Of a stretch of DNA of 64,000 nucleotides, positions 1-9,388 are shown piece after piece. The stretch lies in sequence record OQ885479; one strand, written 5' to 3'. The stretch comes from Escherichia phage SUT_E1520. The notes beneath the pieces were generated by a model. It had not been told where the DNA came from, did no database searches, and saw only the letters and a program-made list of their open reading frames with translations. Every line of letters begins with the position of its first letter. The first letter of the stretch is position 1. A program made the position numbers and the translations under genes.

Positions 1-119
1 TGATGAATAGTTTCAATCTTGTTAATAAAATGTTTAATGCTGGTTGACTTGCTACCGTCTAGCAGGTTGCGCAATGCACCCTTTAATACGGTGGCATTAT
101 CAGGTTTATACAGCCTCAT
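1..119 (-). CDS. hypothetical protein, 5' end only (gene continues past window start)
   Basis: ATG at 117-119 (minus) with GAGGAGG Shine-Dalgarno 9 nt upstream; frame open to window edge (MRLYKPDNATVLKGALRNLLDGSKS...). Confidence 0.45.
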   Translation of the reverse strand, partial: MRLYKPDNATVLKGALRNLLDGSKSTSIKHFINKIETIH

Positions 120-385
120 TTGTTAGGCCTCCTCGTTAATCGGTGAGTGAATGATAAAGGTAAATTTCTAGCATAGGCAAATATTATTTTACCTTTTTAT
201 TTTCCTTGCCTAGCGCCTATTTTTATGATAACCGCGCAGCGGTGCAATAAAGAGCAAACCACGGCGAAGCCACCAGGCCGACGCATTGAGGCTTTACTTT
301 AATATTACCTTACAGCGTTTAGCTCGTTAGAATGCGATTTAAGCCGCTTAAAATTGATTGCAGTTGTTAACACTACCTTTTTACC

Positions 386-821
386 CTGTATAAATATACA
401 GTAGGATAACCTGTGGATAAGTCTGTGTAAAAGTCCTTATATCGCCGCCTATCGTGTCAAGTCAAAAAGTGCTGTGGATAACTTTGTGTATAACTTAAAT
501 GATAGTGGTTCTCACTTAGCTAGATGATTTCTTATAGTTATTATTTCTCATTAATTTATATGTATATTATATATCATGAAATAGTTAGTTGGCTAATGAG
601 ATTTTTCCGTGATTAATAGTCTGCTAATAATTCAGGTCGTTACAATCCACCAGCATGATTATCATTCTAGCAATTATTAGTCTGCTATCTTTCCGATGCA
701 TACTAACAAATAAAAGTCAATTAATTTATTTCATAAAATAAGTAGTTATCCACTGGAAAATAAAAGTCAAGTGGATAACTAGGAAAATTTCATTTTTGCT
801 TTTGGGGATAAGTTATCAACA
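386..821. promoter_or_regulatory. ORF-free control region with DnaA-box-like 9-mers plus direct and inverted repeats
   Basis: TGTGGATAA (rc TTATCCACA) at 412-420 and 473-481; TTATCCACT at 746-754 and at 770-778 (rc); TTATCAACA at 813-821; palindrome CTGTATAAATATACAG 386-401; direct repeat AATAAAAGTCAA at about 708-720 and 758-770; no ORF of 60 aa or more across 120-1037. Confidence 0.55.
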
Positions 822-1225
822 AGGCTAGAATGCGCCTAAAACGCTCCAGAACGCAATAAAGTTTTTAGCCATCCCATCATAAGGGGATAAGCCGTTTATC
901 GTTACCACGAGCTTTTTAGATTTTGTCAAGTAGGGCAAAGCAAATATAAATGAAAAAATTACTTGCCTATTTGCTTTATTTTGTGGTATTCGCGCGCCCG
1001 TTTCTTTTAATTTTAGGCCGTCGCCGCACGGTGTCCGGTGAGTTTTACCTTTACATTTCTTTACAAAAATAAGGTTGCGCCATTTTCGGGAATCCCCTAT
1101 TATTTATCTCGTAGGGCGGCAATGACGAACTACACGGCGGGAAGTTTACCGCCACGCTCTTTAAAAATTGGGTACATCTTAAAGCCTATCGGCGGTAAAC
1201 TTATTCATTATAAGGAATCGACGAT

Positions 1226-1429
1226 ATGAAACAAACGCTTTTGATCACTGGCAAGCCTATTAAGGCACTAGATAGCAAAACAAAAAATTTGTTGACAGTA
1301 GCTCAAAGATCAGTAAGATATAGATTCACGCAGTACAAGAAAGGTCGCCAGCAAGGTCTGGAAATGATCTGGCGAAATATTATGATTGACCTAAAAGAAA
1401 ATCATAAAAAATTGCAAAAAATTGTTTGA
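1226..1429 (+). CDS. hypothetical small basic protein (pre-early region)
   Basis: 67-aa ORF, AAGGA 9 nt upstream of ATG; no recognisable domain. Confidence 0.4.
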   Translation: MKQTLLITGKPIKALDSKTKNLLTVAQRSVRYRFTQYKKGRQQGLEMIWRNIMIDLKENHKKLQKIV

Positions 1430-1454
1430 CAACCTAGCCGATAGGTTTTAAGAT
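1426..1454 (+). promoter_or_regulatory. putative sigma70 promoter (TTGACA-17-TAAGAT)
   Basis: consensus -35 TTGACA at 1426-1431, 17-bp spacer, TAAGAT -10; upstream of ORF 1660. Confidence 0.3.
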
Positions 1455-1595
1455 GTACCCAGTTCGATAAGAGCGATAACTTGATAAAATTTGACGGTCG
1501 GTGCTTACCATAATGCATCCCGCCCCCTAACGGGATATAGCGGCCTACGTGGAGTTCTTTAAAATTGATTATATTGGCGAGCGGATTGTTACTTA

Positions 1596-1623
1596 TTACC
1601 TGCTGTTACTTTCTAGCAGGTAA
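1596..1623. promoter_or_regulatory. perfect inverted repeat TTACCTGCT-N10-AGCAGGTAA (operator or RNA hairpin)
   Basis: 9-bp arms read directly; sits about 40 bp upstream of the ORF 1660 start. Confidence 0.4.
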
Positions 1624-1659
1624 TGCGGAACAATCCCCAAATAACTAGGAGTTTATATT

Positions 1660-1911
1660 ATGCAAAACGTTATTACCGCGCCGAAAGTTGGTCAATCCGT
1701 CTTCATTCCTTTCGTTACTAAAACGGATGAATTAACCGGAAAGGCCGAACGTATTAAAGGTGCGGCGCTTATGCCGTTCGATACAATCGACGCGGTATAC
1801 GCTGAAAATGAACGTAGTAACAACGGCAAGCCCGTTTTTAGCGTTCGCGTTAAATCCGGCGATGTTGTAAAGGTTGTTCAACGCAACGAAAAATGGGAAG
1901 CTGTATTGTAA
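1660..1911 (+). CDS. hypothetical pre-early protein
   Basis: 83-aa ORF with AGGAG 8 nt upstream of ATG. Confidence 0.6.
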   Translation: MQNVITAPKVGQSVFIPFVTKTDELTGKAERIKGAALMPFDTIDAVYAENERSNNGKPVFSVRVKSGDVVKVVQRNEKWEAVL

Positions 1912-2007
1912 ATTAGTGTTAACTTTATATCCCCTTATTTCAGGGGGATATAACGATTAACATTAAGTTAATCTAATCCCTTAAATTAAACTAATAGGAG
2001 TTACATC

Positions 2008-2415
2008 ATGACTAACGCTAAAACCGCAAAATTCGCATGGAATGAAGAAAACACTCAGAAAGCTGTTTCCATGTATCAACAGTTAATTAATGAAAACGGT
2101 TTAGATTTCGCAAATAGCGACGGTTTAAAAGAGATTGCAAAAGCAGTGGGCGCGGCTTCTCCCGTATCCGTTCGGTCAAAATTGACCAGCGCAAAAGCAT
2201 ATCAAAAAAGCGATAAGCCTCGCAAAGTTGGCGGCGGTAGTTCAATCCGCAAAGCTCATTATGTACGCGTTATTGCAAAACACGCTATCGATTCCGGCAT
2301 TATCAAAGATGCCGATGATCTGGCAAGCCTTGAAAGTGCAAAACTTGAAACGCTGGACGCAGTAGCGCAATTGTTAGGCGTTGCCGATGAAGTAAAACAA
2401 GCCGCAGGCGAATAA
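2008..2415 (+). CDS. A2: A2-like pre-early protein (T5 A2 is required for second-step DNA transfer)
   Basis: 135-aa ORF with AGGAG SD; size and position immediately upstream of the A1-like gene match the T5 A2-A1 arrangement; assignment by synteny and size only. Confidence 0.6.
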   Translation: MTNAKTAKFAWNEENTQKAVSMYQQLINENGLDFANSDGLKEIAKAVGAASPVSVRSKLTSAKAYQKSDKPRKVGGGSSIRKAHYVRVIAKHAIDSGIIKDADDLASLESAKLETLDAVAQLLGVADEVKQAAGE

Positions 2416-2425
2416 TAGTTATACC

Positions 2426-2452
2426 TTGCCCCCTTTTTTAGTGAGGGGGCAA
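2426..2452 (+). terminator. stem-loop downstream of A2 (TTGCCCCC-N11-GGGGGCAA)
   Basis: 8-bp GC-rich inverted repeat directly after the stop codon; T-run lies in the loop rather than 3' of the stem, so terminator function is uncertain. Confidence 0.35.
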
Positions 2453-2507
2453 TAATATAACTGTTTAGCGATAGTTATTTTCTTCCCTTAAATCAGGAGT
2501 TTTTAAA

Positions 2508-2705
2508 ATGATCTTTTATCCTACTGAATCATTAATTCTAGGCTTGTTTATTATGGCGGCCTCGTTATTGTTCGCTTATTTTCAAAATGATTTAGATTCG
2601 TATTATTTTAAACGTAAATCTAAGTTAGCAAAGCGTTTAGGTCTTATTTGTTTTATTGCCGCCGTTGCTTGTGGTGTTAGTTCTAGCCTTATGCCTTTAA
2701 ATTAA
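2508..2705 (+). CDS. small hydrophobic (membrane) protein
   Basis: 65-aa ORF, AGGAG SD, two hydrophobic stretches (LILGLFIMAASLLFAY, LGLICFIAAVACGV). Confidence 0.5.
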   Translation: MIFYPTESLILGLFIMAASLLFAYFQNDLDSYYFKRKSKLAKRLGLICFIAAVACGVSSSLMPLN

Positions 2706-2795
2706 TGTTGCAAATTATAACGCCTATTATTCGAGGCGTTATATTTGGCAATATTGCCGTTATTAATCTAATCCCTTTAATGGAGTTTTATTATC

Positions 2796-4460
2796 ATGAT
2801 TATTTCCGCAGAAAAACAAACCGTTATCCTGAAAATGGCCGCTGACTTTAATTTCTATGGTAAACGTCTGCGCGCTACTAAACTGGAAGTCTGCGACGAT
2901 ATATCAAAAGCGGTCTACGATACAACGAAACACTCCACCGCCATTTGTGATTGGTTGGAAGCAAATAAACCAGCGAAACCGAAAGCGGCGAAAGTAGCAA
3001 AAGCCATTAAAAACGACGAGCGCCCAGAAGCGGCGGGGGTTGTTTCTAGCACGGTTGAACAGTGGGAAGTAAAACAAGGCAAACGCTTTATTATTACATC
3101 GATTCAGAATAATACTTTCCCGCATAAAAACTTTTTGGCCTCACTTGAACAATATGCCAAATTTATCGGCGCTGATTTGCTCGTTTCTAAGTATATTTAT
3201 AATAAAAACGGTTTTCAAAATGGGGAAGGTGCGGATGGAATCAAATATGATTCCGCGTTTGATAAATATATTTGCAGCAAAAACGTGTTTTTAAATAACC
3301 GCCGTTTCGCTTTCATGGCTGAAATTAATGTTTTGCCAACCGCAGATTATCCGCTTTCTGGATTCGCAGAAACTGCAACGGCTTTAAATATTGAAGGTCT
3401 GGCAATTGGTCACGCTAAAATCACCGCTGAAAGTGTGCCAGCTTTAAAAGGTGAAGTAGTGCGCCGTATGTATTCAACCGGAACGGCAACGCTCAAAAAC
3501 TACATTCAGCAGAAAGCAGGACAAAAGGCCGAGGCGCTGCATAACTTCGGTGCGCTTATTGTTGAGTTCGACGACGACGGGGAATTTTTTGTACGCCAGC
3601 TTGAAACGATGGACGAAAGCGGGGTGTTTTATGATCTGAACGTTTGCGCTACTCCTGCCGGATGCTATGAAACATCGGGGCATGTTTTAGGCTTGCAGTA
3701 TGGCGATATTCACGCCGAAAAATTAGATGATGATTGTGCCGTTGCGTCATGGGCTGGCGAGAATAGTTTGCTTGATATTCTTAAACCAAAATATCAGCTT
3801 ATTCATGACGTGCATGATTTTACATCGCGCAATCATCATAACCGTGCATCCGGTGTATTCCTAGCGAAACAGTATGCCGCCGGACGTGATAAAGTTCTGG
3901 ATGATCTTATCGATACGGGGCGCGTGCTGGAATCAATGGAACGTGATTTTAGTCAAACAATCATCGTAGAATCGAATCACGATTTGGCGCTATCCCGCTG
4001 GCTTGATGATCGTAATGCTAACATTAAAGACGATCCCGCCAACGCCGAACTATATCACCGCCTAAATGCTGCAATTTACGCGGCAATCGGTGAGCATGAC
4101 GATACTTTCAACGTGCTAGATTATGCGTTGCGCAAGGTTGCAGGTTGTGAGTTTAACGCCATTTTCCTAACCACTGACCAATCTTTCAAGATTGCAGGTA
4201 TTGAATGCGGCGTACACGGTCACAACGGCATTAACGGCAGCCGTGGCAACCCGAAACAATTTAAGAAATTGGGCAAGTTAAACACGGGGCATACGCATAC
4301 CGCCAGCATTTACGGCGGCGTATACACCGCTGGCGTAGCTGGTAGTCTGGATATGGGTTACAACGTTGGCGCGTCAAGCTGGACGCAGACGCATTTAATT
4401 ACCTATGCAAACGGTCAGCGCACTTTGATTGACTTTAAAAACGGTAAATTCTTTGCGTAA
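2796..4460 (+). CDS. A1: A1-like pre-early protein, calcineurin-type metallophosphoesterase fold
   Basis: 554 aa (T5 A1 is about 556 aa); metallophosphatase-like motifs GDIHAE, ESNHD, GHTH; GGAG SD; located between A2-like and dmp-like genes. Confidence 0.8.
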   Translation: MIISAEKQTVILKMAADFNFYGKRLRATKLEVCDDISKAVYDTTKHSTAICDWLEANKPAKPKAAKVAKAIKNDERPEAAGVVSSTVEQWEVKQGKRFIITSIQNNTFPHKNFLASLEQYAKFIGADLLVSKYIYNKNGFQNGEGADGIKYDSAFDKYICSKNVFLNNRRFAFMAEINVLPTADYPLSGFAETATALNIEGLAIGHAKITAESVPALKGEVVRRMYSTGTATLKNYIQQKAGQKAEALHNFGALIVEFDDDGEFFVRQLETMDESGVFYDLNVCATPAGCYETSGHVLGLQYGDIHAEKLDDDCAVASWAGENSLLDILKPKYQLIHDVHDFTSRNHHNRASGVFLAKQYAAGRDKVLDDLIDTGRVLESMERDFSQTIIVESNHDLALSRWLDDRNANIKDDPANAELYHRLNAAIYAAIGEHDDTFNVLDYALRKVAGCEFNAIFLTTDQSFKIAGIECGVHGHNGINGSRGNPKQFKKLGKLNTGHTHTASIYGGVYTAGVAGSLDMGYNVGASSWTQTHLITYANGQRTLIDFKNGKFFA

Positions 4461-4515
4461 TTAAATTATTTCCCTAGCGGCTTGAAATATAGCCGCTATT
4501 TCAGGAGTCACAAAA

Positions 4516-4773
4516 ATGAAAGTTACATTACCCAAAACACTGGACGAAAAAGTATTCATTTCACCGGATGAAATGGAATCTGATAAAGTTTACAGCTTCG
4601 GGCCTATCCTAGCCGCTAAAACTAATACTGATGGCGTTATTTCCGTAGATTACCGTGATAATGATGTTGTTCCTTTTGATGACGATAGCGCTTTTTATGA
4701 GTGGCTAAGTGATAATAATCTACCCGTAAACGGTGAATTAACGCCGTACCAGATGCAGATTATTATCAAATAA
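4516..4773 (+). CDS. hypothetical protein
   Basis: 85-aa ORF with AGGAG SD. Confidence 0.5.
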   Translation: MKVTLPKTLDEKVFISPDEMESDKVYSFGPILAAKTNTDGVISVDYRDNDVVPFDDDSAFYEWLSDNNLPVNGELTPYQMQIIIK

Positions 4774-4811
4774 TTTAAATCCATTATTAAACTAATTGGG
4801 GTTTTATAAAT

Positions 4812-5204
4812 ATGAAAAAGCAAAATATTCCATTCGATCGCGCTCAGTCTTCCATTGTTCTGGTTTATTCTAATGGTGAACGTTATCACGTCGAGGCGTG
4901 GCACGTTATTGATGAATTGTTAGATTTCAATGATGCGATGCAGGTTACAACATTTGCATATATGCAAGGCAAACTAACAAGCCATATTAAAGCAAAAGGC
5001 GTTTATATTGACACGGTGAAACAAGAAACGATTATCATCGACGCAGTAAAATCCGGCCTAGCCTTTGCAGTTGTCGCGCCTTGCCTCGCTTGCCTTGATG
5101 ATCAGCTAGCGAGCGCAAAGGTATATACCTGCGCGGGTATTCGTTCCCATGTATCAGGTGAGGATATTAGTTTTATTGCTGATGCGTTGGCTTATGGTCT
5201 TTAA
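4812..5204 (+). CDS. hypothetical protein
   Basis: 130-aa ORF with GGGG SD-like sequence. Confidence 0.5.
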   Translation: MKKQNIPFDRAQSSIVLVYSNGERYHVEAWHVIDELLDFNDAMQVTTFAYMQGKLTSHIKAKGVYIDTVKQETIIIDAVKSGLAFAVVAPCLACLDDQLASAKVYTCAGIRSHVSGEDISFIADALAYGL

Positions 5205-5283
5205 TAGTTGATTTATTATTACCCGCTTATAAATAGCGGGTAATGCTGGATAAACTAAATCCCTTTAATGGAGAACGTAACAA

Positions 5284-6018
5284 ATGAATAAAGCTATTAT
5301 GAATATTTCCCGTAATTTCCCGCATATTTCCCGCGTCATGATTTGGGATTTAGACGGCACTATCATTAATTCTTTCCATCGTGTAGCGCCTTGCTTTGAT
5401 AGTGAGGGCAATTTAGATTTAAATAAGTATAAAAATGAAGCCTGCAAACATCATTTAATAATGCAAGATACTTTATTGCCATTGGTTGAATATATGCGCC
5501 AATGTATGAATGATGCAAATACTTTAAACATTATTTGCACCGCTCGACTAATGAGCAAGTCGGACTATTATTATTTGCGTAAACAAGGGTTGCGCGGTCG
5601 TGGTGATAGTAATATCCGTGTATTTTCCCGCGATACACTACACAAATATTTTGAAGCTGATAAAGTTAGCGAGATATACCACAGCAAAGACGCCATTTAT
5701 AAATCGTATTATTTTGAATTATTTAAACAATTATATCCAAACGCTGACTTTACAATGATTGACGATCATAAAGGCGTGCTATCAGCGGCGGCATCATACG
5801 GATTTAAAACGCTGGACGCGCAAGCCATTAACGATATTCTATCAATCGGCGTTGCATTGATAGGTGAAACCTTTATCGATGAATCTCTCGATGATGATAA
5901 TGATTATCAGTTCCTAGCTGATCGTTTGAAATTATGTTGGGAAAGTATGACCGAGGAAGAACGCGCAGAATATAGTTGCAGCCCGCAACAATATATTGAG
6001 AAATTAAAAGTTGCGTAA
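5284..6018 (+). CDS. dmp: 5'-deoxyribonucleotidase Dmp-like (HAD-type phosphatase)
   Basis: 244 aa; N-terminal HAD motif I-like MIWDLDGTI; conserved TAAATCCCTTTAATGGAG leader shared with the A1-like gene. Confidence 0.75.
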   Translation: MNKAIMNISRNFPHISRVMIWDLDGTIINSFHRVAPCFDSEGNLDLNKYKNEACKHHLIMQDTLLPLVEYMRQCMNDANTLNIICTARLMSKSDYYYLRKQGLRGRGDSNIRVFSRDTLHKYFEADKVSEIYHSKDAIYKSYYFELFKQLYPNADFTMIDDHKGVLSAAASYGFKTLDAQAINDILSIGVALIGETFIDESLDDDNDYQFLADRLKLCWESMTEEERAEYSCSPQQYIEKLKVA

Positions 6019-6033
6019 TAATTAAAGTTGAAA

Positions 6034-6068
6034 TAGTCACGGTGTGTAATGATAACATGCCGTGACTA
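6034..6068. terminator. stem-loop between convergent dmp and the minus-strand peptide operon
   Basis: TAGTCACGG-N17-CCGTGACTA inverted repeat read directly; no clean T-run. Confidence 0.35.
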
Positions 6069-6169
6069 TTAGCTTGCTAAGTACCGGGCGGTAATGAGAC
6101 TCATTCTCATCTGGGGAGCCACTGGACACACCTCCATGTGTAATCTTATGAAATTTGACAAAAGTCGAA

Positions 6170-6415
6170 TTAGCGCATAGAAGGGTCATCAAACCTGTGT
6201 TCTGGTCTGAACTCCCGGAATCTCTTCCGCGACGCCCGAGATCCATCCGACCACTCTCGCTCAAACTCCGCACGTTTCTCGTCAAACTTCCGCTCCCTTT
6301 CCGCAATCTCCCGCGTCACTCCCGCAATATATTCCCGATGCTTATTGATTGCCGCAGTCGTCCCGAAAACTCCCGCGAGTATCCCGATAATAAAAGCAAT
6401 TATAATACTAAACAT
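6170..6415 (-). CDS. small membrane protein 5 (81 aa), TM helix plus highly charged tail
   Basis: MFSIIIAFIIGILAGVFGTTAA followed by REIAERERKFDEKRAEFEREW. Confidence 0.5.
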   Translation of the reverse strand: MFSIIIAFIIGILAGVFGTTAAINKHREYIAGVTREIAERERKFDEKRAEFEREWSDGSRASRKRFREFRPEHRFDDPSMR

Positions 6416-6602
6416 CTAATTCCCTCTCAATTTGCAGAATACGGGTGCTATCACAACGTTGCAGTAGTACTAGCTTTTCTAGAATAACTTGTTGTTGTTT
6501 TACCTGGGCTTCTAGAGTTTTTAGGCGGAGATACACGATACGAGAGACAATGAGGATTACCCAGACTAATATTACCATTAGTGTAATTGCCACTTCCATC
6601 AT
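6408..6602 (-). CDS. small membrane peptide 4 (64 aa)
   Basis: MMEVAITLMVILVWVILIVS hydrophobic N-terminus followed by a coiled-coil-like tail; 8-nt overlap with next gene. Confidence 0.5.
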   Translation of the reverse strand: MMEVAITLMVILVWVILIVSRIVYLRLKTLEAQVKQQQVILEKLVLLQRCDSTRILQIERELDV

Positions 6603-6706
6603 TTATGTTTCTCCGATAGTAAGGTTTCGATTCTAGCTAAGTGATTATCTAAGATACATTGCCCAATAATCACAATCCCCAGTAGTGCAATAATTACCCA
6701 TTCCAT
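6599..6706 (-). CDS. small membrane peptide 3 (35 aa), MEWVII family; below ORF-track size cut-off
   Basis: MEWVIIALLGIVIIGQCILDNHLARIETLLSEKHK; same N-terminus and ARIETLL motif as peptide 2; TGATG overlap with next gene. Confidence 0.45.
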   Translation of the reverse strand: MEWVIIALLGIVIIGQCILDNHLARIETLLSEKHK

Positions 6707-6861
6707 TATTTACGCTCCTCTAATAAAGTTTCAATTCTAGATAATCTATTGCTCAACTGCATTAATTTAATCTCTGTTTGGGTTACAGAGGTATCTATTA
6801 CACGTAAGCCTGCAAAGAGAAGTATCAATAAGACGAATATGCCAATAATTACCCATTCCAT
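6706..6861 (-). CDS. small membrane peptide 2 (51 aa), MEWVII family
   Basis: MEWVIIGIFVLLILLFAGLRVIDTSVTQTEIKLMQLSNRLSRIETLLEERK; GGCGGGGTGG SD-like sequence; TAATG overlap with next gene. Confidence 0.5.
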   Translation of the reverse strand: MEWVIIGIFVLLILLFAGLRVIDTSVTQTEIKLMQLSNRLSRIETLLEERK

Positions 6862-6989
6862 TATAGCCACCCCGCCATAGCTGCTAACCAAAAACCTACG
6901 AAGATTAAGAATAATACAAAACCAAATCCGTAAATATTAACCCACGCTTCGTACACTTCTCCACGTCTGTTCTTTCTTTTATTTGACAT
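6861..6989 (-). CDS. small membrane peptide 1 (42 aa; alternative start at 6998)
   Basis: MSNKRKNRRGEVYEAWVNIYGFGFVLFLIFVGFWLAAMAGWL; AGGAG 10 nt upstream; stop overlaps next start (TAATG). Confidence 0.45.
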   Translation of the reverse strand: MSNKRKNRRGEVYEAWVNIYGFGFVLFLIFVGFWLAAMAGWL

Positions 6990-7152
6990 ATCTTTCATGC
7001 TCCTATGAGTATGGTATTTGGAATACCCTAGCAATTGCAGTGATTAGTATAAATATTCTTATTATACCTTCCCTAGTGTCTTGTGTGGCATCCTGGACTA
7101 ATTCTGCGCTAGGATTATCTTAAGTGGTGATAGTTACTAAGGTCGTTTTTAC

Positions 7153-7386
7153 TTAGAAAACTCCCTCACATGTATTCCCCTCAGTAAAGTAGCTTACGGG
7201 AGCCCAAAAAGACCCATAGGCCATAATTGGTGACACCAAAAACATATCCCCTTTCCTATCAAAAACATTAGCCTTATATTTCACATGATCTTGTACATAG
7301 TAGGCCTCACATTTAATATCTTTAGGACCAAAAGTAGAGCAAGCCGAAAGAAGTACCACTGCCATAGCTAAAAATAATTTTTTCAT
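7153..7386 (-). CDS. llp: Llp-like lipoprotein (receptor-blocking superinfection exclusion in T5)
   Basis: 77 aa; signal peptide with lipobox LSAC; divergently placed next to the pb5 gene as in T5. Confidence 0.8.
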   Translation of the reverse strand: MKKLFLAMAVVLLSACSTFGPKDIKCEAYYVQDHVKYKANVFDRKGDMFLVSPIMAYGSFWAPVSYFTEGNTCEGVF

Positions 7387-7417: not shown

Positions 7418-7446
7418 ATTATACAGAATTATAGCAATATAGGCAA
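7418..7446 (-). promoter_or_regulatory. sigma70 promoter for llp (TTGCCT-17-TGnTATAAT)
   Basis: rc of 7441-7446 is TTGCCT, 17-bp spacer, rc of 7418-7423 is TATAAT with upstream TG; then AGGAG and llp ATG. Confidence 0.5.
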
Positions 7447-7465: not shown

Positions 7466-9388
7466 ATGAGTTTTTTCGCTGGCAAGCTAAATAATAAATC
7501 TATACTCTCTCTGCGCAGGGGTAGTGGCGGAGATACTAATCAACATATTAATCCTGACTCTCAGACCATATTCCATTCAGATATGCCCCATGTTATCATA
7601 ACAGAAACTCACTCCACAGGGTTAAGGCTAGATCAAGGTGCTGGAGATTACTACTGGTCTGATATGCCTAGCAGAATTACCCAGTTACATAATAATGATC
7701 CTAATAGAGTTGTGCTGACGGAGATTGAGTTCTCAGATGGCTCTAGACATATGTTATCCGGTATGTCTATGGGGGTAGGTGCTAAGGCGTACGGAATTAT
7801 AAATCCACAGGTCATGTCCCAGGGTGGCTTAAAAACACAAATAACAGCTAGTGCTGATCTATCCCTTGATGTAGGTTATTTTAACAGTGGAACTAGTGGA
7901 ACTATTCCCCAGAAGCTTAGAGATGGTACTGGATGTCAGCATATGTTTGGCGCCTTTAGTGGGCGTAGAGGATTTGCATCTAGTGCAATGTACTTAGGTG
8001 GTGCCGCTCTTTATAAGTCTGCCTGGGATGGTTCAGGATATATTGTGCCCAGCTCAGGATCCATAACTATCCCTAGCGACTACGTTAGGCATCCCGGAGC
8101 TAGAAACTTTGGATTTAACGCCATATATGTTCGTGGTAGATCTTGCAATAGAGTTCTTTACGGTATGGAAGGGCCTAACTATACCACTGCTGGAGCTGTG
8201 CACGGTGCTTCTAGTTCTGGGGCTCTTAACTTTATAGATAACCCTAGCAATCCCTCGGCTCCTAAGTACTCTGTAGGTTTCGCACGTGCTGATCCCACTA
8301 ACTATGCTTATTGGGAAAGTATGGGTGATCCGAATGATGCTGCTAATGGGCCTATAGGTATATATAGTGAGCACCTCGGTATTTATCCATCTAAAATTAC
8401 TTGGTATGTTACCAATCTAGTATACAATGGCTCAGGATACAGTATTGATAGTGGGCTATTTACTGGCAATGATATTAAACTTAGCCCAAGAGAGTTTATT
8501 ATTAAAGGGGTTAATGTTAATAATACGTCATGGAAGTTTATTAACTTTGTTGAGAAAAACTTTAATGTAGGTAGCAGAGCTGATTTTCGTGATGTTGGGT
8601 GTAACTTGAGTATGGGTGCCCCCTCTACTGGAGTTTCTGGCATAGCAACATTTGGGCTGCCCACTACGGAAAGCAATAACGCACCAAGTATTAAAGGTGG
8701 TAACGTTGGTGGTTTAAATACTAATGTAGTTAGTATTTATAACTTTTTACCTTCAGCATCTTGGTATGTTTCTAGTAATCCTCCAAAAATAGGCAGCAAT
8801 TATGGAGATGTTTGGAGTGAGAATCTTTTACCTTTAAGACTTCTAGGTGGTAGCGGAAGTACTGTACTATCTGGTAACATAGTATTTCAGGGTAATGGTT
8901 CCGTGCATGTTGGCACCGTGGGACTAGATCTTAATAGTAGTAGAAATGGCGCAATTGTATGTACTATGGAGTTCCTGGATGACACATGGTTGTCTGCAGG
9001 AGGTATTGGCTGCTTTAATCCTACGGAAATGCTATCTAAAGGCGCCGAATATGGAGATAGTAGGTTCAGAATGGGTGGCAATACTATCGATAAAAAACTT
9101 CACCAAATATTGTCCCTACCTGCAGGAGAATATGTACCATTTTTTACTATTAAAGGTACTGTAGTAAATGCTTGTAAATTACAGGCTGCTGGGTATACTC
9201 CAACTCCGTACTGGGTATCTGGGTTGCCGGGATCAGTAGGTCAAACGGGTTACTATACTCTAACATATTATATGAGAAATGATGGAAATAATAATATCTC
9301 TATTTGGTTAGAATCCTCTATGAGCAATATAATTGGCATGAAAGCATGCTTACCAAATATTAAACTTATAATTCAACGCCTTACCTAA
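7466..9388 (+). CDS. oad: receptor-binding tail protein pb5
   Basis: 640 aa, equal to T5 pb5; adjacent and divergent to llp; GGAG SD. Confidence 0.85.

What the first reader, a model, noticed from the sequence alone, without database searches (positions are those of the whole stretch)
6170..6998. Translationally coupled array of five tiny single-pass membrane peptides downstream of llp
Five consecutive minus-strand ORFs (42, 51, 35, 64 and 81 aa) each begin with a hydrophobic helix and are linked by overlapping stop/start codons (TAATG or TGATG). Peptides 2 and 3 share the N-terminus MEWVII and a C-terminal (A/S)RIETLL motif, and peptide 4 has the same architecture, so the array arose by local duplication. 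One member is below the ORF-track size cut-off and the track mis-extends others. The position, right after the receptor-blocking lipoprotein gene and at the pre-early/late junction, suggests a membrane-acting role such as exclusion, depolarisation or holin/antiholin-like activity. Whether the array lies inside the terminal repeat cannot be decided from one window.
Basis: partly seen in the sequence, partly recalled or inferred. Interest (0 to 1): 0.6.

Follow-up and report, generated by a model that had tools for sequence, protein, structure and literature searches.

The report
T5-type small membrane-peptide operon after llp
The five tiny membrane-protein genes that follow the receptor-blocking gene llp in this T5-like phage are real and conserved, but they are already annotated (T5.159-T5.162 plus one extra copy), are dispensable in laboratory screens, and have no known function.

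Summary
The window is Escherichia phage SUT_E420, a T5-like Tequintavirus, read in reverse T5 orientation. All five minus-strand ORFs exist as described: 42, 51, 35, 64 and 81 aa, with every junction overlapping. They are the T5 genes T5.159-T5.162 plus one extra gene, P2. P2 is a paralogue of T5.160 bracketed by perfect 22-nt direct repeats. All five are already annotated as hypothetical proteins. In 30 related loci the annotated frame has the lowest dN/dS (0.11-0.36) and is the only frame open in all of them, so these are real genes. Each has one strongly hydrophobic segment. The soluble parts are predicted to be cytoplasmic helices. The array lies 42 bp outside the terminal repeat. It probably forms one early operon with llp, ending at a hairpin inside the repeat. 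It is silent when only pre-early DNA has entered the cell. Gene content varies among relatives (3, 4 or 5 genes), and all four families are restricted to T5-like phages. Knock-down in T5 gave no fitness effect. Function is unknown. My best guess (about 0.3) is an inner-membrane complex adding a second envelope lock-down or exclusion layer to Llp. Holin and spanin roles are unlikely.

The parts
7418..7446 (-). Promoter-like site upstream of llp (TTGCCT, 17 nt, TATAAT). It corresponds in position to the T5 'putative early promoter T5P41' and is the probable promoter for llp plus the array.
   Evidence: 10 of 12 match; T5 annotation
7153..7386 (-). llp, the lytic-conversion lipoprotein that blocks FhuA (77 aa). 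It is the first gene of the putative operon.
   Evidence: 98.7% identical to T5 Llp; PMC9586334
6861..6989 (-). P1, the T5.159 orthologue (42 aa, phrog_8596). It has a basic N-terminus (SNKRKNRRGEVY) and a C-terminal transmembrane helix whose end, WLAAMAGW, is invariant. Predicted to be tail-anchored with the N-terminus in the cytoplasm.
   Evidence: dN/dS 0.11; found in 428 phage records
6706..6861 (-). P2, an extra 51-aa paralogue of P3/T5.160 that T5 lacks. It has an N-terminal transmembrane helix and a tail with heptad periodicity.
   Evidence: phrog_6369, 1e-16; found in only 32 phage records
6843..6864 (.). Upstream copy of a perfect 22-nt direct repeat (ATAATGGAATGGGTAATTATTG on the coding strand). 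It covers the stop/start junction and the first six codons.
6688..6709 (.). Downstream copy of the same 22-nt repeat. The 155-nt spacing equals the size of the P2 insertion relative to T5.
6599..6706 (-). P3, the T5.160 orthologue (35 aa, phrog_6369). It has an N-terminal transmembrane helix, and the motif GQC(I/V)LDNHLARIE is nearly invariant across the loci compared.
   Evidence: (dN/dS 0.15)
6408..6602 (-). P4, the T5.161 orthologue (64 aa, phrog_5851). It has an N-terminal transmembrane helix that continues into a heptad-patterned helix. It is absent from more than half of T5-like genomes.
   Evidence: dN/dS 0.36; AF2 single helix 2-63, pLDDT 90; 193 records
6170..6415 (-). P5, the T5.162 orthologue (81 aa, phrog_6447 'membrane protein'). 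It has an N-terminal transmembrane helix with an invariant GxxxGxxG motif, a highly charged helix, and a basic tail that varies among relatives.
   Evidence: dN/dS 0.23; AF2 single helix 2-68
6032..6070 (-). Stable hairpin followed by a T-rich tract, lying between the convergent P5 and dmp genes. It is the likely terminator of the llp-array transcript, and T5 has an annotated rho-independent terminator in the same place.
   Evidence: (z = -3.5)
1..6128 (.). Terminal-repeat DNA (pre-early genes, including dmp at 5284-6018 on the + strand). The repeat boundary is placed at about 6128 by homology with T5, so the array lies outside the repeat.

Best explanation
SHOWN: the locus holds five real protein-coding genes for inner-membrane micro-proteins. 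They are the T5.159-T5.162 orthologues plus a duplicated T5.160-like gene. They lie just outside the terminal repeat, downstream of llp and on the same strand, and every stop/start junction overlaps. INFERRED (operon): llp and the array form one early transcription unit that ends at the hairpin inside the repeat. INFERRED (topology): by the positive-inside rule all soluble parts face the cytoplasm. P1 is tail-anchored with its N-terminus inside. P2-P5 have the N-terminus outside and the C-terminus inside, followed by amphipathic or heptad helices. INFERRED (assembly): the conserved small-residue motifs in the transmembrane helices (GxxxGxxG in P5, AxxxG in P1) and the coupled translation suggest a hetero-oligomeric bundle built on the core members P1, P3 and P5, with P4 and P2 as optional members. 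MOST LIKELY FUNCTION (guess, about 0.3): an accessory envelope lock-down module made together with Llp once the whole genome has entered. Llp jams the outer-membrane receptor. The peptide complex acts at the cytoplasmic membrane, either hindering DNA entry by a superinfecting phage or stabilising or resealing the membrane after injection. It would work independently of which receptor the phage uses. The identity part of this statement is about 0.95 certain. The stated confidence refers to the functional part.
For: Real genes: the sense frame has the lowest dN/dS (0.11-0.36) and is the only frame open in all relatives. Membrane character: the best 19-residue windows have mean Kyte-Doolittle hydropathy 2.3-3.0, and AF2 predicts single long helices for P4 and P5. 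Operon: no terminator-like site and no significant RNA structure lie between llp and P1. In phages with a different lipoprotein and receptor-binding-protein module, homology resumes only about 10-36 bp upstream of the P1 start codon. That leaves room for a ribosome-binding site but not for a conserved promoter. A hairpin follows P5, and T5's annotation shows one early promoter before llp and one terminator after ORF151. Timing: in Bas33 RNA-seq at 20 min the locus is covered at a per-base level similar to the neighbouring exclusion lipoprotein gene. It has essentially no reads when infection is arrested after first-step transfer. Accessory, conditional character: gene content varies (P1 in 428 records, P4 in 193, P2 in 32). 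P5 is truncated or remodelled in viable phages. T5.159-162 and llp were all scored 'Not Fit' in the CRISPRi-ART screen. Receptor independence: the array is conserved next to three different lipoprotein types.
Against: No experiment links these peptides to exclusion or membrane sealing. Llp alone reproduces the FhuA block (PMC9586334), so the array is not needed for the known exclusion function. Co-transcription with llp is inferred, because the only RNA-seq available was analysed without strand information and miscounts genes shorter than a read. A cytoplasmic orientation of the soluble parts is not the obvious geometry for intercepting DNA or a tape-measure protein arriving from the periplasm. 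The topology prediction is weak for P2 and P3. The recombination breakpoint just upstream of P1 shows that the array belongs to the conserved backbone and not to the receptor module. Adjacency to llp may therefore be historical rather than functional. No homologue of known function exists.
Confidence: 0.33

Rival explanations
1. The array is an anti-defence or host-takeover module acting at the membrane. The peptides would neutralise or pre-empt a host inner-membrane protein, for example a membrane-depolarising abortive-infection effector, a protease or a transporter. They would matter only in hosts that carry the target.
For: The genes are lineage-restricted orphans. Gene content differs between close relatives and one member is recently duplicated. 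Knock-down has no fitness effect in a laboratory K-12 host. All of this is typical of conditionally useful accessory genes.
Against: Selection is purifying, with no sign of diversifying selection (dN/dS 0.11-0.36). P1, P3 and P5 are present in all 30 loci compared, and P1 in 428 phage records. There is no match to any defence-related profile. No target is known.
Confidence: 0.2
2. The peptides regulate lysis timing, acting as antiholin-like or accessory holin-like proteins that modulate the T5 holin from the membrane.
For: P5 and P4 have the generic holin look: small size, one transmembrane helix, a glycine-zipper motif and a highly charged C-terminal tail. P2 has a faint hit to a PHROG holin family (E = 0.54).
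Against: T5-like phages have a complete holin, endolysin and i/o-spanin cassette elsewhere (PMC4342426). The array sits in an early unit with llp, not beside an endolysin. P5 is truncated to 35 aa or internally deleted in some sequenced phage genomes. No holin profile matches significantly. Knock-down gives no fitness effect.
Confidence: 0.12
3. The peptides are membrane tethers for a cytoplasmic process. The basic cytoplasmic segments of P1 and P5 would anchor phage DNA, ribosomes or an assembly step to the inner membrane.
For: P1 has a conserved basic N-terminus (KRKNRRGE). P5 has a conserved, charged helix followed by an R/K-rich tail, and both are predicted to be cytoplasmic.
Against: The basic tail of P5 beyond residue 66 is freely replaced where HNH endonuclease genes have inserted. 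The genes are dispensable in the T5 screen. No nucleic-acid-binding domain was detected.
Confidence: 0.08
4. The peptides mimic bitopic divisome proteins (FtsL or FtsB type: transmembrane helix plus leucine zipper) and block host cell division, as reported for SPO1 gp56 (recalled from memory).
For: P2, P3 and P4 have a transmembrane helix followed by a heptad repeat (a/d positions 69-75% L/I/V/M, against 8-28% elsewhere). P5 has a sub-threshold hit to an FtsL model (E = 0.022, 14 bits against a cut-off of 50).
Against: The hit is far below the curated cut-off. The predicted orientation (coiled coil in the cytoplasm) is opposite to that of FtsL and FtsB (periplasmic, from established knowledge). 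Blocking division gives little benefit in a lytic cycle in which lysis is seen by about 40 min.
Confidence: 0.04
5. These are spurious ORFs, or the real gene lies on the opposite strand.
For: A 110-aa ORF (6155-6487, + strand) lies antisense to P5. Another antisense frame stays free of stop codons in all 26 P5 sequences.
Against: The 110-aa antisense ORF has dN/dS 0.93 and contains stops in 4 of 26 relatives. The stop-free antisense frame is the one whose third codon positions coincide with those of P5 (a shadow of the sense constraint). In the window that frame's only start codon gives a 24-aa ORF. The sense frame has the lowest dN/dS in all four families.
Confidence: 0.02

Closest known systems
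Phage T5 genes T5.159, T5.160, T5.161 and T5.162 (ORF148-151 in AY587007; PHROGs 8596, 6369, 5851, 6447)
   Same: They are orthologues. Identity is 75-91%, with the same order, the same overlapping junctions and the same position between llp and the right terminal repeat. The RefSeq notes already say 'contains single transmembrane domain'.
   Different: The window carries one extra gene, P2, a 51-aa paralogue of T5.160 found in only 32 phage records. No function has been assigned to any of them.
Inner-membrane superinfection-exclusion proteins of other phages (T4 Imm and Sp; HK97 gp15). Recalled from memory, not tested here.
   Same: They are small, phage-encoded inner-membrane proteins that are non-essential in the laboratory. 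Here the peptides are encoded next to a known exclusion gene.
   Different: There is no sequence similarity. Those proteins act singly, not as a coupled array of 3-5 peptides. No exclusion phenotype has been shown here.
Holins and antiholins
   Same: They share small size, one transmembrane helix, small-residue zipper motifs and charged C-terminal tails.
   Different: The array is not in the lysis cassette, which T5-like phages have elsewhere. It is dispensable, matches no holin profile, and is expressed with an early gene.
Two-component spanins (Rz/Rz1 type)
   Same: A lipoprotein gene (llp) lies next to genes for N-terminally anchored helical proteins.
   Different: Llp is a structurally characterised FhuA binder. 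None of P1-P5 has a lipobox. The helical parts are short and predicted to be cytoplasmic. T5-like phages already have annotated i- and o-spanins.
Viroporins of animal viruses (HIV-1 Vpu, influenza M2). Architecture recalled from memory.
   Same: P5, at 81 aa, has an N-terminal transmembrane helix that starts almost at residue 1, followed by a cytoplasmic amphipathic helix. This is the same layout and size as Vpu.
   Different: There is no homology, and neither oligomerisation nor channel activity has been tested.
LapA domain (PF06305) and FtsL (NF049847)
   Same: P5 gives weak profile hits over the transmembrane helix and the adjacent helix (E = 5.6e-4 and 0.022).
   Different: Both hits are below the curated cut-offs (20.2 against 28 bits; 14.4 against 50 bits). 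A profile search of 1.84 billion representative proteins found only T5-like relatives.

Membership tests
T5.159-T5.162 orthologous groups (PHROGs 8596 / 6369 / 5851 / 6447) | Full-length significant match to the family profile | tested here: met
   P1 4e-30, P3 2.2e-25, P2 1e-16 (same PHROG as P3), P4 1.9e-30, P5 2e-47, each covering the whole profile.
T5.159-T5.162 orthologous groups (PHROGs 8596 / 6369 / 5851 / 6447) | Synteny: between the receptor-blocking lipoprotein gene and the right terminal repeat, on the same strand as the lipoprotein gene | tested here: met
   the same order is seen in T5 and in all 30 loci compared.
Holin | At least one transmembrane helix and a charged hydrophilic C-terminus in a small protein | tested here: met
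   for P4 and P5. This feature is generic and not discriminating.
Holin | Encoded in a lysis cassette next to the endolysin | tested here: not met
   the neighbours are llp and dmp. The T5-like lysis cassette is elsewhere (PMC4342426; T5 lys is T5.040).
Holin | Match to a described holin family | tested here: not met
   the only hit is a PHROG holin family for P2 at E = 0.54.
Holin | Lethal, timed permeabilisation of the membrane on expression | not testable with these tools
   This needs induction experiments.
Spanin (i-/o-spanin or u-spanin) | Outer-membrane lipoprotein component with a lipobox cysteine | tested here: not met
   none of the P1-P5 sequences has a signal peptide with a lipobox. 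The only lipoprotein nearby is Llp, a known FhuA binder.
Spanin (i-/o-spanin or u-spanin) | N-in/C-out inner-membrane component with a long periplasmic coiled coil | tested here: not met
   the flanking charges predict cytoplasmic C-terminal parts, and the tails are only 16-62 residues long. This rests on prediction, not experiment.
Inner-membrane superinfection-exclusion proteins (T4 Imm/Sp, HK97 gp15 type) | Sequence or profile similarity to a characterised member | tested here: not met
   the only relatives are uncharacterised proteins of T5-like phages.
Inner-membrane superinfection-exclusion proteins (T4 Imm/Sp, HK97 gp15 type) | Blocks DNA entry of a superinfecting phage when expressed | not testable with these tools
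   This needs plating and DNA-entry assays.
LapA domain (PF06305) | Score above the Pfam gathering threshold | tested here: not met
   20.2 bits against a cut-off of 28; no LapA-family protein appears among the homologues.
'Tail assembly protein' / 'tail fiber protein' (labels carried by some database entries for P4, P1 and P5 homologues) | Similarity to a characterised tail chaperone or tail fibre protein | tested here: not met
   the PHROG is of unknown function and there is no Pfam or NCBIfam match. The proteins are 42-81-aa bitopic membrane peptides. The labels seen look like propagated annotation errors.

The most novel reading that the evidence does not exclude
The core peptides P1, P3 and P5, with P4 and P2 as optional subunits, assemble into a hetero-oligomeric inner-membrane complex. 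Because its genes sit at the trailing end of the genome, the complex is made only after the whole genome has entered. It would then close or guard the DNA-entry route through the cytoplasmic membrane. That would be a receptor-independent second layer of superinfection exclusion or membrane resealing, working alongside the outer-membrane blocker Llp. Such a finding would identify a phage-encoded function for how the T5 injection channel is shut, which has been an open question.
Probability: 0.2. Interest if true: 0.6.

Novelty: already known. Interest (0 to 1): 0.3.

Why it matters
The genes themselves are not new. T5 has carried them as T5.159-T5.162 since its genome was annotated, and this phage's own record lists all five. 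This analysis adds several things: proof of coding by selection analysis, and placement outside the terminal repeat. It also adds a probable llp-array early operon, a core-plus-optional gene structure across hundreds of T5-like genomes, and the mechanism by which the fifth gene arose. If the peptides do form an inner-membrane exclusion or sealing complex, T5-like phages would have a two-layer envelope lock-down. Phage-therapy cocktails that mix T5-like phages could then interfere with one another regardless of receptor. As it stands, the locus is a well-defined, cheap experimental target and not a surprise.

Tried and rejected
(1) A LapA link for P5. The Pfam hit is below threshold, and no LapA relatives appear in a 5.8-billion-protein word search or a 1.84-billion-protein profile search. 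Rejected.

(2) FtsL, SecE and ATP-synthase-a hits in NCBIfam. All are far below the cut-offs and reflect transmembrane composition. Rejected.

(3) PADLOC defence profiles gave no hits. The PDB sequence search with the P5 profile gave nothing below E = 0.017, only helical or glycophorin-type noise.

(4) Fold searches were not run. Both AF2 models are single straight helices, so any match would be meaningless.

(5) The antisense-gene alternative was rejected by frame-specific dN/dS.

(6) Homology of the whole array by duplication holds only for P2 and P3.

(7) Homology between the Klebsiella Sugarlandvirus 74-aa protein and P4 was not demonstrated (HMM E = 0.041, hhalign probability 9.5%).

(8) I considered that the array might disable TonB-ExbBD, the one component common to the FhuA, BtuB and FepA receptors. 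I dropped the idea because Llp appears to need a TonB-dependent intermediate state of FhuA.

(9) Literature: no paper in the library mentions T5.159-162 in its main text. HIDEN-SEQ covered no T5-like phage. The Bas33 proteomics table was not among the held supplements.

(10) The per-gene RNA-seq counts for the 108- and 129-bp genes are near zero while their neighbours have hundreds of reads. I treat this as a counting artefact, not as biology.
Full report
IDENTITY OF THE WINDOW. The 2.3-kb stretch around the finding is 100% identical to Escherichia phage SUT_E420 (OQ990039.1). It is about 89% identical to phage T5 and matches 450 T5-like records. The window runs in the reverse of the T5 orientation. 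In order it holds terminal-repeat genes ending with dmp (5284-6018, +), the array (minus strand), llp (7153-7386, -) and the receptor-binding protein pb5 (7466-9388, +).

THE OBSERVATION. The five ORFs are there:
- P1, 6861-6989, 42 aa
- P2, 6706-6861, 51 aa
- P3, 6599-6706, 35 aa
- P4, 6408-6602, 64 aa
- P5, 6170-6415, 81 aa

All junctions overlap. They are TAATG, TAATG, ATGA (or TGATG with the second ATG) and the 8-nt ATGTTTAG. Each start codon has a GGAG-type Shine-Dalgarno sequence inside the preceding gene. Every peptide has a 19-residue window of mean hydropathy 2.3-3.0. In P2-P5 this window starts at residues 1-4.

ALREADY ANNOTATED. T5 RefSeq lists T5.159 (42 aa), T5.160 (35 aa), T5.161 (64 aa) and T5.162 (81 aa). 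AY587007 calls them ORF148-151. SUT_E420's own record annotates all five as hypothetical proteins. The PHROG assignments are 8596 for P1, 6369 for P2 and P3, 5851 for P4 and 6447 for P5, which is labelled 'membrane protein'.

ARE THEY REAL GENES? I compared 30 related loci: 26 from IMG/VR plus four GenBank stretches (two T5 records, SUT_E420 itself and Bas31). Variable sites concentrate at third codon positions. The ratio of mean dN to mean dS is 0.11 for P1, 0.15 for P3, 0.36 for P4, 0.23 for P5 (residues 1-66) and 0.19 for P2, which has only four sequences. A six-frame control shows that the annotated frame has the lowest dN/dS and is the only frame open in every sequence. The 110-aa antisense ORF at 6155-6487 has dN/dS 0.93 and is interrupted by stops in 4 of 26 relatives. 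The other stop-free antisense frame is the one whose third positions coincide with the sense third positions, and in the window its only start codon gives a 24-aa ORF.

ANATOMY.
- Predicted structure: AF2 predicts one continuous helix for P4 (residues 2-63, pLDDT 90) and for P5 (residues 2-68, pLDDT 78, with a disordered tail).
- Heptads: the tails of P2, P3 and P4 show heptad periodicity. L/I/V/M residues occupy 69-75% of a/d positions against 8-28% of other positions.
- Conserved motifs: P5 has an invariant GxxxGxxG motif in its transmembrane helix and an invariant or near-invariant charged helix. P1 ends in an invariant WLAAMAGW, and the P3 motif GQC(I/V)LDNHLARIE is nearly invariant.
- Topology: flanking charges predict cytoplasmic soluble parts. 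P1 has five K/R residues before its helix and nothing after it. P4 and P5 have no K/R before the helix and two or three just after it. P2 and P3 are ambiguous. This topology is inference only.

ORIGIN OF THE FIFTH GENE. P2 is bracketed by a perfect 22-nt direct repeat at 6843-6864 and 6688-6709. The repeat spans the stop/start junction and the first six codons. Its 155-nt spacing is exactly the extra length relative to T5. A P3 HMM detects P2 at E = 1.9e-5. P2/P3 against P4 reaches only 58% hhalign probability, and P1 and P5 are unrelated to the others. Local duplication therefore explains P2 but not the whole array.

POSITION AND TRANSCRIPTION. The annotated T5 right terminal repeat starts 42 bp after the T5.162 stop codon. 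The aligned position in the window is about 6128, so the array lies outside the repeat. No terminator-like site lies between llp and P1, and that spacer has no significant RNA structure (z = 0.10). Downstream of P5, between the convergent P5 and dmp genes, is a stable hairpin followed by a T-rich tract (6032-6070; z = -3.5 for the spacer). T5 has an annotated rho-independent terminator in the same place. T5's annotation shows one putative early promoter in front of llp and none before ORF148.

In relatives that carry a different lipoprotein and receptor-binding-protein module, nucleotide homology resumes only 10-36 bp upstream of the P1 start codon. That is enough for a ribosome-binding site but not for a conserved promoter. 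I infer a single early operon running from llp to P5.

EXPRESSION AND FITNESS DATA FROM THE LITERATURE. In Bas33, which also has the five-gene form, unstranded RNA-seq was done 20 min after infection. The read counts for the two replicates were:
- P5: 104 / 51
- P4: 1704 / 1243
- P3: 1 / 2
- P2: 479 / 334
- P1: 2 / 2
- adjacent exclusion lipoprotein gene: 1108 / 531

Counts fell to essentially zero (0-1 reads) when daunorubicin arrested infection after first-step transfer, while dmp stayed high (PMC13250531). The locus is therefore not pre-early. The strand is unresolved, and counts for the 108- and 129-bp genes are unreliable.

In the CRISPRi-ART transcriptome-wide knock-down of T5, T5.159, T5.160, T5.161 and T5.162 were all scored 'Not Fit', as was llp (PMC11879866 source data). 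That screen also scored several important genes as 'Not Fit'. It shows dispensability in the laboratory only loosely.

DISTRIBUTION. P1 is found in 428 phage records, P4 in 193 and P2 in 32. Among the 30 loci there are three forms:
- three genes: P1, a P3 variant and P5
- four genes: as in T5
- five genes: as in the window

The form does not track the type of lipoprotein. The P5 C-terminus beyond about residue 66 is replaced wherever an HNH endonuclease gene has inserted between P5 and the repeat. P5 is cut to 35 aa in L022 and carries an internal deletion in L029.

Searches of 5.8 billion proteins with P5, P4 and P1, and a profile search of 1.84 billion representatives with P5, found only T5-like relatives and no Pfam domains. 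Pfam, NCBIfam, PADLOC and PDB sequence searches gave nothing above threshold.

Klebsiella Sugarlandvirus IME260 has two non-homologous proteins at the same position, each with an N-terminal transmembrane helix followed by further helix. One of them is unannotated. Proteus Novosibvirus has five soluble ORFs of about 120 aa there instead.

WHAT IT MOST LIKELY DOES. What is shown: these are conserved, coupled, accessory micro-proteins predicted to be membrane-inserted, expressed only after the bulk of the genome has entered. What is inferred: they are co-transcribed with llp, they face the cytoplasm, and they pack through small-residue motifs into a complex whose core is P1, P3 and P5.

My best functional guess (about 0.3) is an envelope lock-down or exclusion role at the cytoplasmic membrane that complements Llp and does not depend on the receptor used. 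Several points count against it. Llp alone gives the known exclusion phenotype. The recombination breakpoint puts the array in the conserved backbone and not in the receptor module. A cytoplasmic orientation is not ideal for blocking entry.

The rivals are as follows:
- A membrane-level anti-defence or host-takeover function (0.2).
- Lysis-timing control (0.12). This is weakened because T5-like phages have their own holin, endolysin and spanins and because P5 is dispensable.
- A membrane tether for a cytoplasmic process (0.08).
- A mimic of divisome proteins (0.04).
- Spurious ORFs (0.02).

VERDICT. Novelty is low and function remains open. The locus is a tidy experimental target.

Noticed in passing
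L013 3215-3751; L018 3162-3716; L019 and L021 3243-3716; L022, L024, L026 and L028 3206-3703; L029 3200-3697: In many relatives an HNH homing-endonuclease gene of several different types is inserted between P5 and the terminal repeat. The insertion replaces the last 15 or so residues of P5. P5 is cut to 35 aa in L022 and has an in-frame deletion within its transmembrane helix in L029.
   Followed up: partly
window 7000-7025: There is a sharp homology breakpoint here. T5-like phages with other receptor-binding-protein and lipoprotein modules align with the window only from 10-36 bp upstream of the P1 start codon. The receptor module is therefore swapped as a cassette right up to the P1 ribosome-binding site.
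   Followed up: partly
database entries for homologues of P4, P1 and P5: Several GenBank and UniRef entries label these 42-81-aa membrane peptides 'tail assembly protein' or 'tail fiber protein'. No profile supports the labels, so they look like propagated annotation errors.
   Followed up: partly
L031 (Klebsiella phage IME260) 3491-3715 and 3719-4174: At the equivalent position in a Sugarlandvirus there is no lipoprotein gene. Instead there is a 74-aa protein with an N-terminal transmembrane helix and a coiled coil. It is followed by an unannotated 151-aa ORF with an N-terminal transmembrane helix and a serine-rich tail, and then by an HNH gene.
   Followed up: partly
L032 (Proteus phage M4H10_20) 5135-6924: At the equivalent position next to dmp lie five consecutive ORFs of 115-126 aa, overlapping or abutting, with no obvious hydrophobic segment. 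At least two share a C-terminal motif (BLASTP E = 0.027). This may be a different tandem-paralogue array.
   Followed up: partly
window 6219-6415, + strand: A frame antisense to P5 stays free of stop codons in all 26 relatives and has a low apparent dN/dS (0.36). Its third codon positions coincide with those of P5, and in the window its only start codon gives a 24-aa ORF. It is most likely a shadow of the sense constraint.
   Followed up: yes
Bas33 genes bas33_0186-0191 (PMC13250531, Dataset S1): Read counts are very uneven along the array. P4 has 1704 reads and P5 only 104 (replicate 1), while the HNH gene downstream has 5363. This could reflect RNA processing, an internal promoter, antisense read-through from dmp, or a counting artefact. 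The analysis was unstranded.
   Followed up: no
window 1-6128: By homology with T5, the first 6.1 kb of the window is terminal-repeat (pre-early) DNA. It directly abuts the late and llp end of the genome. That is the arrangement expected at the right repeat, or in an assembly where the two repeats were collapsed. The public record is labelled a partial genome.
   Followed up: partly
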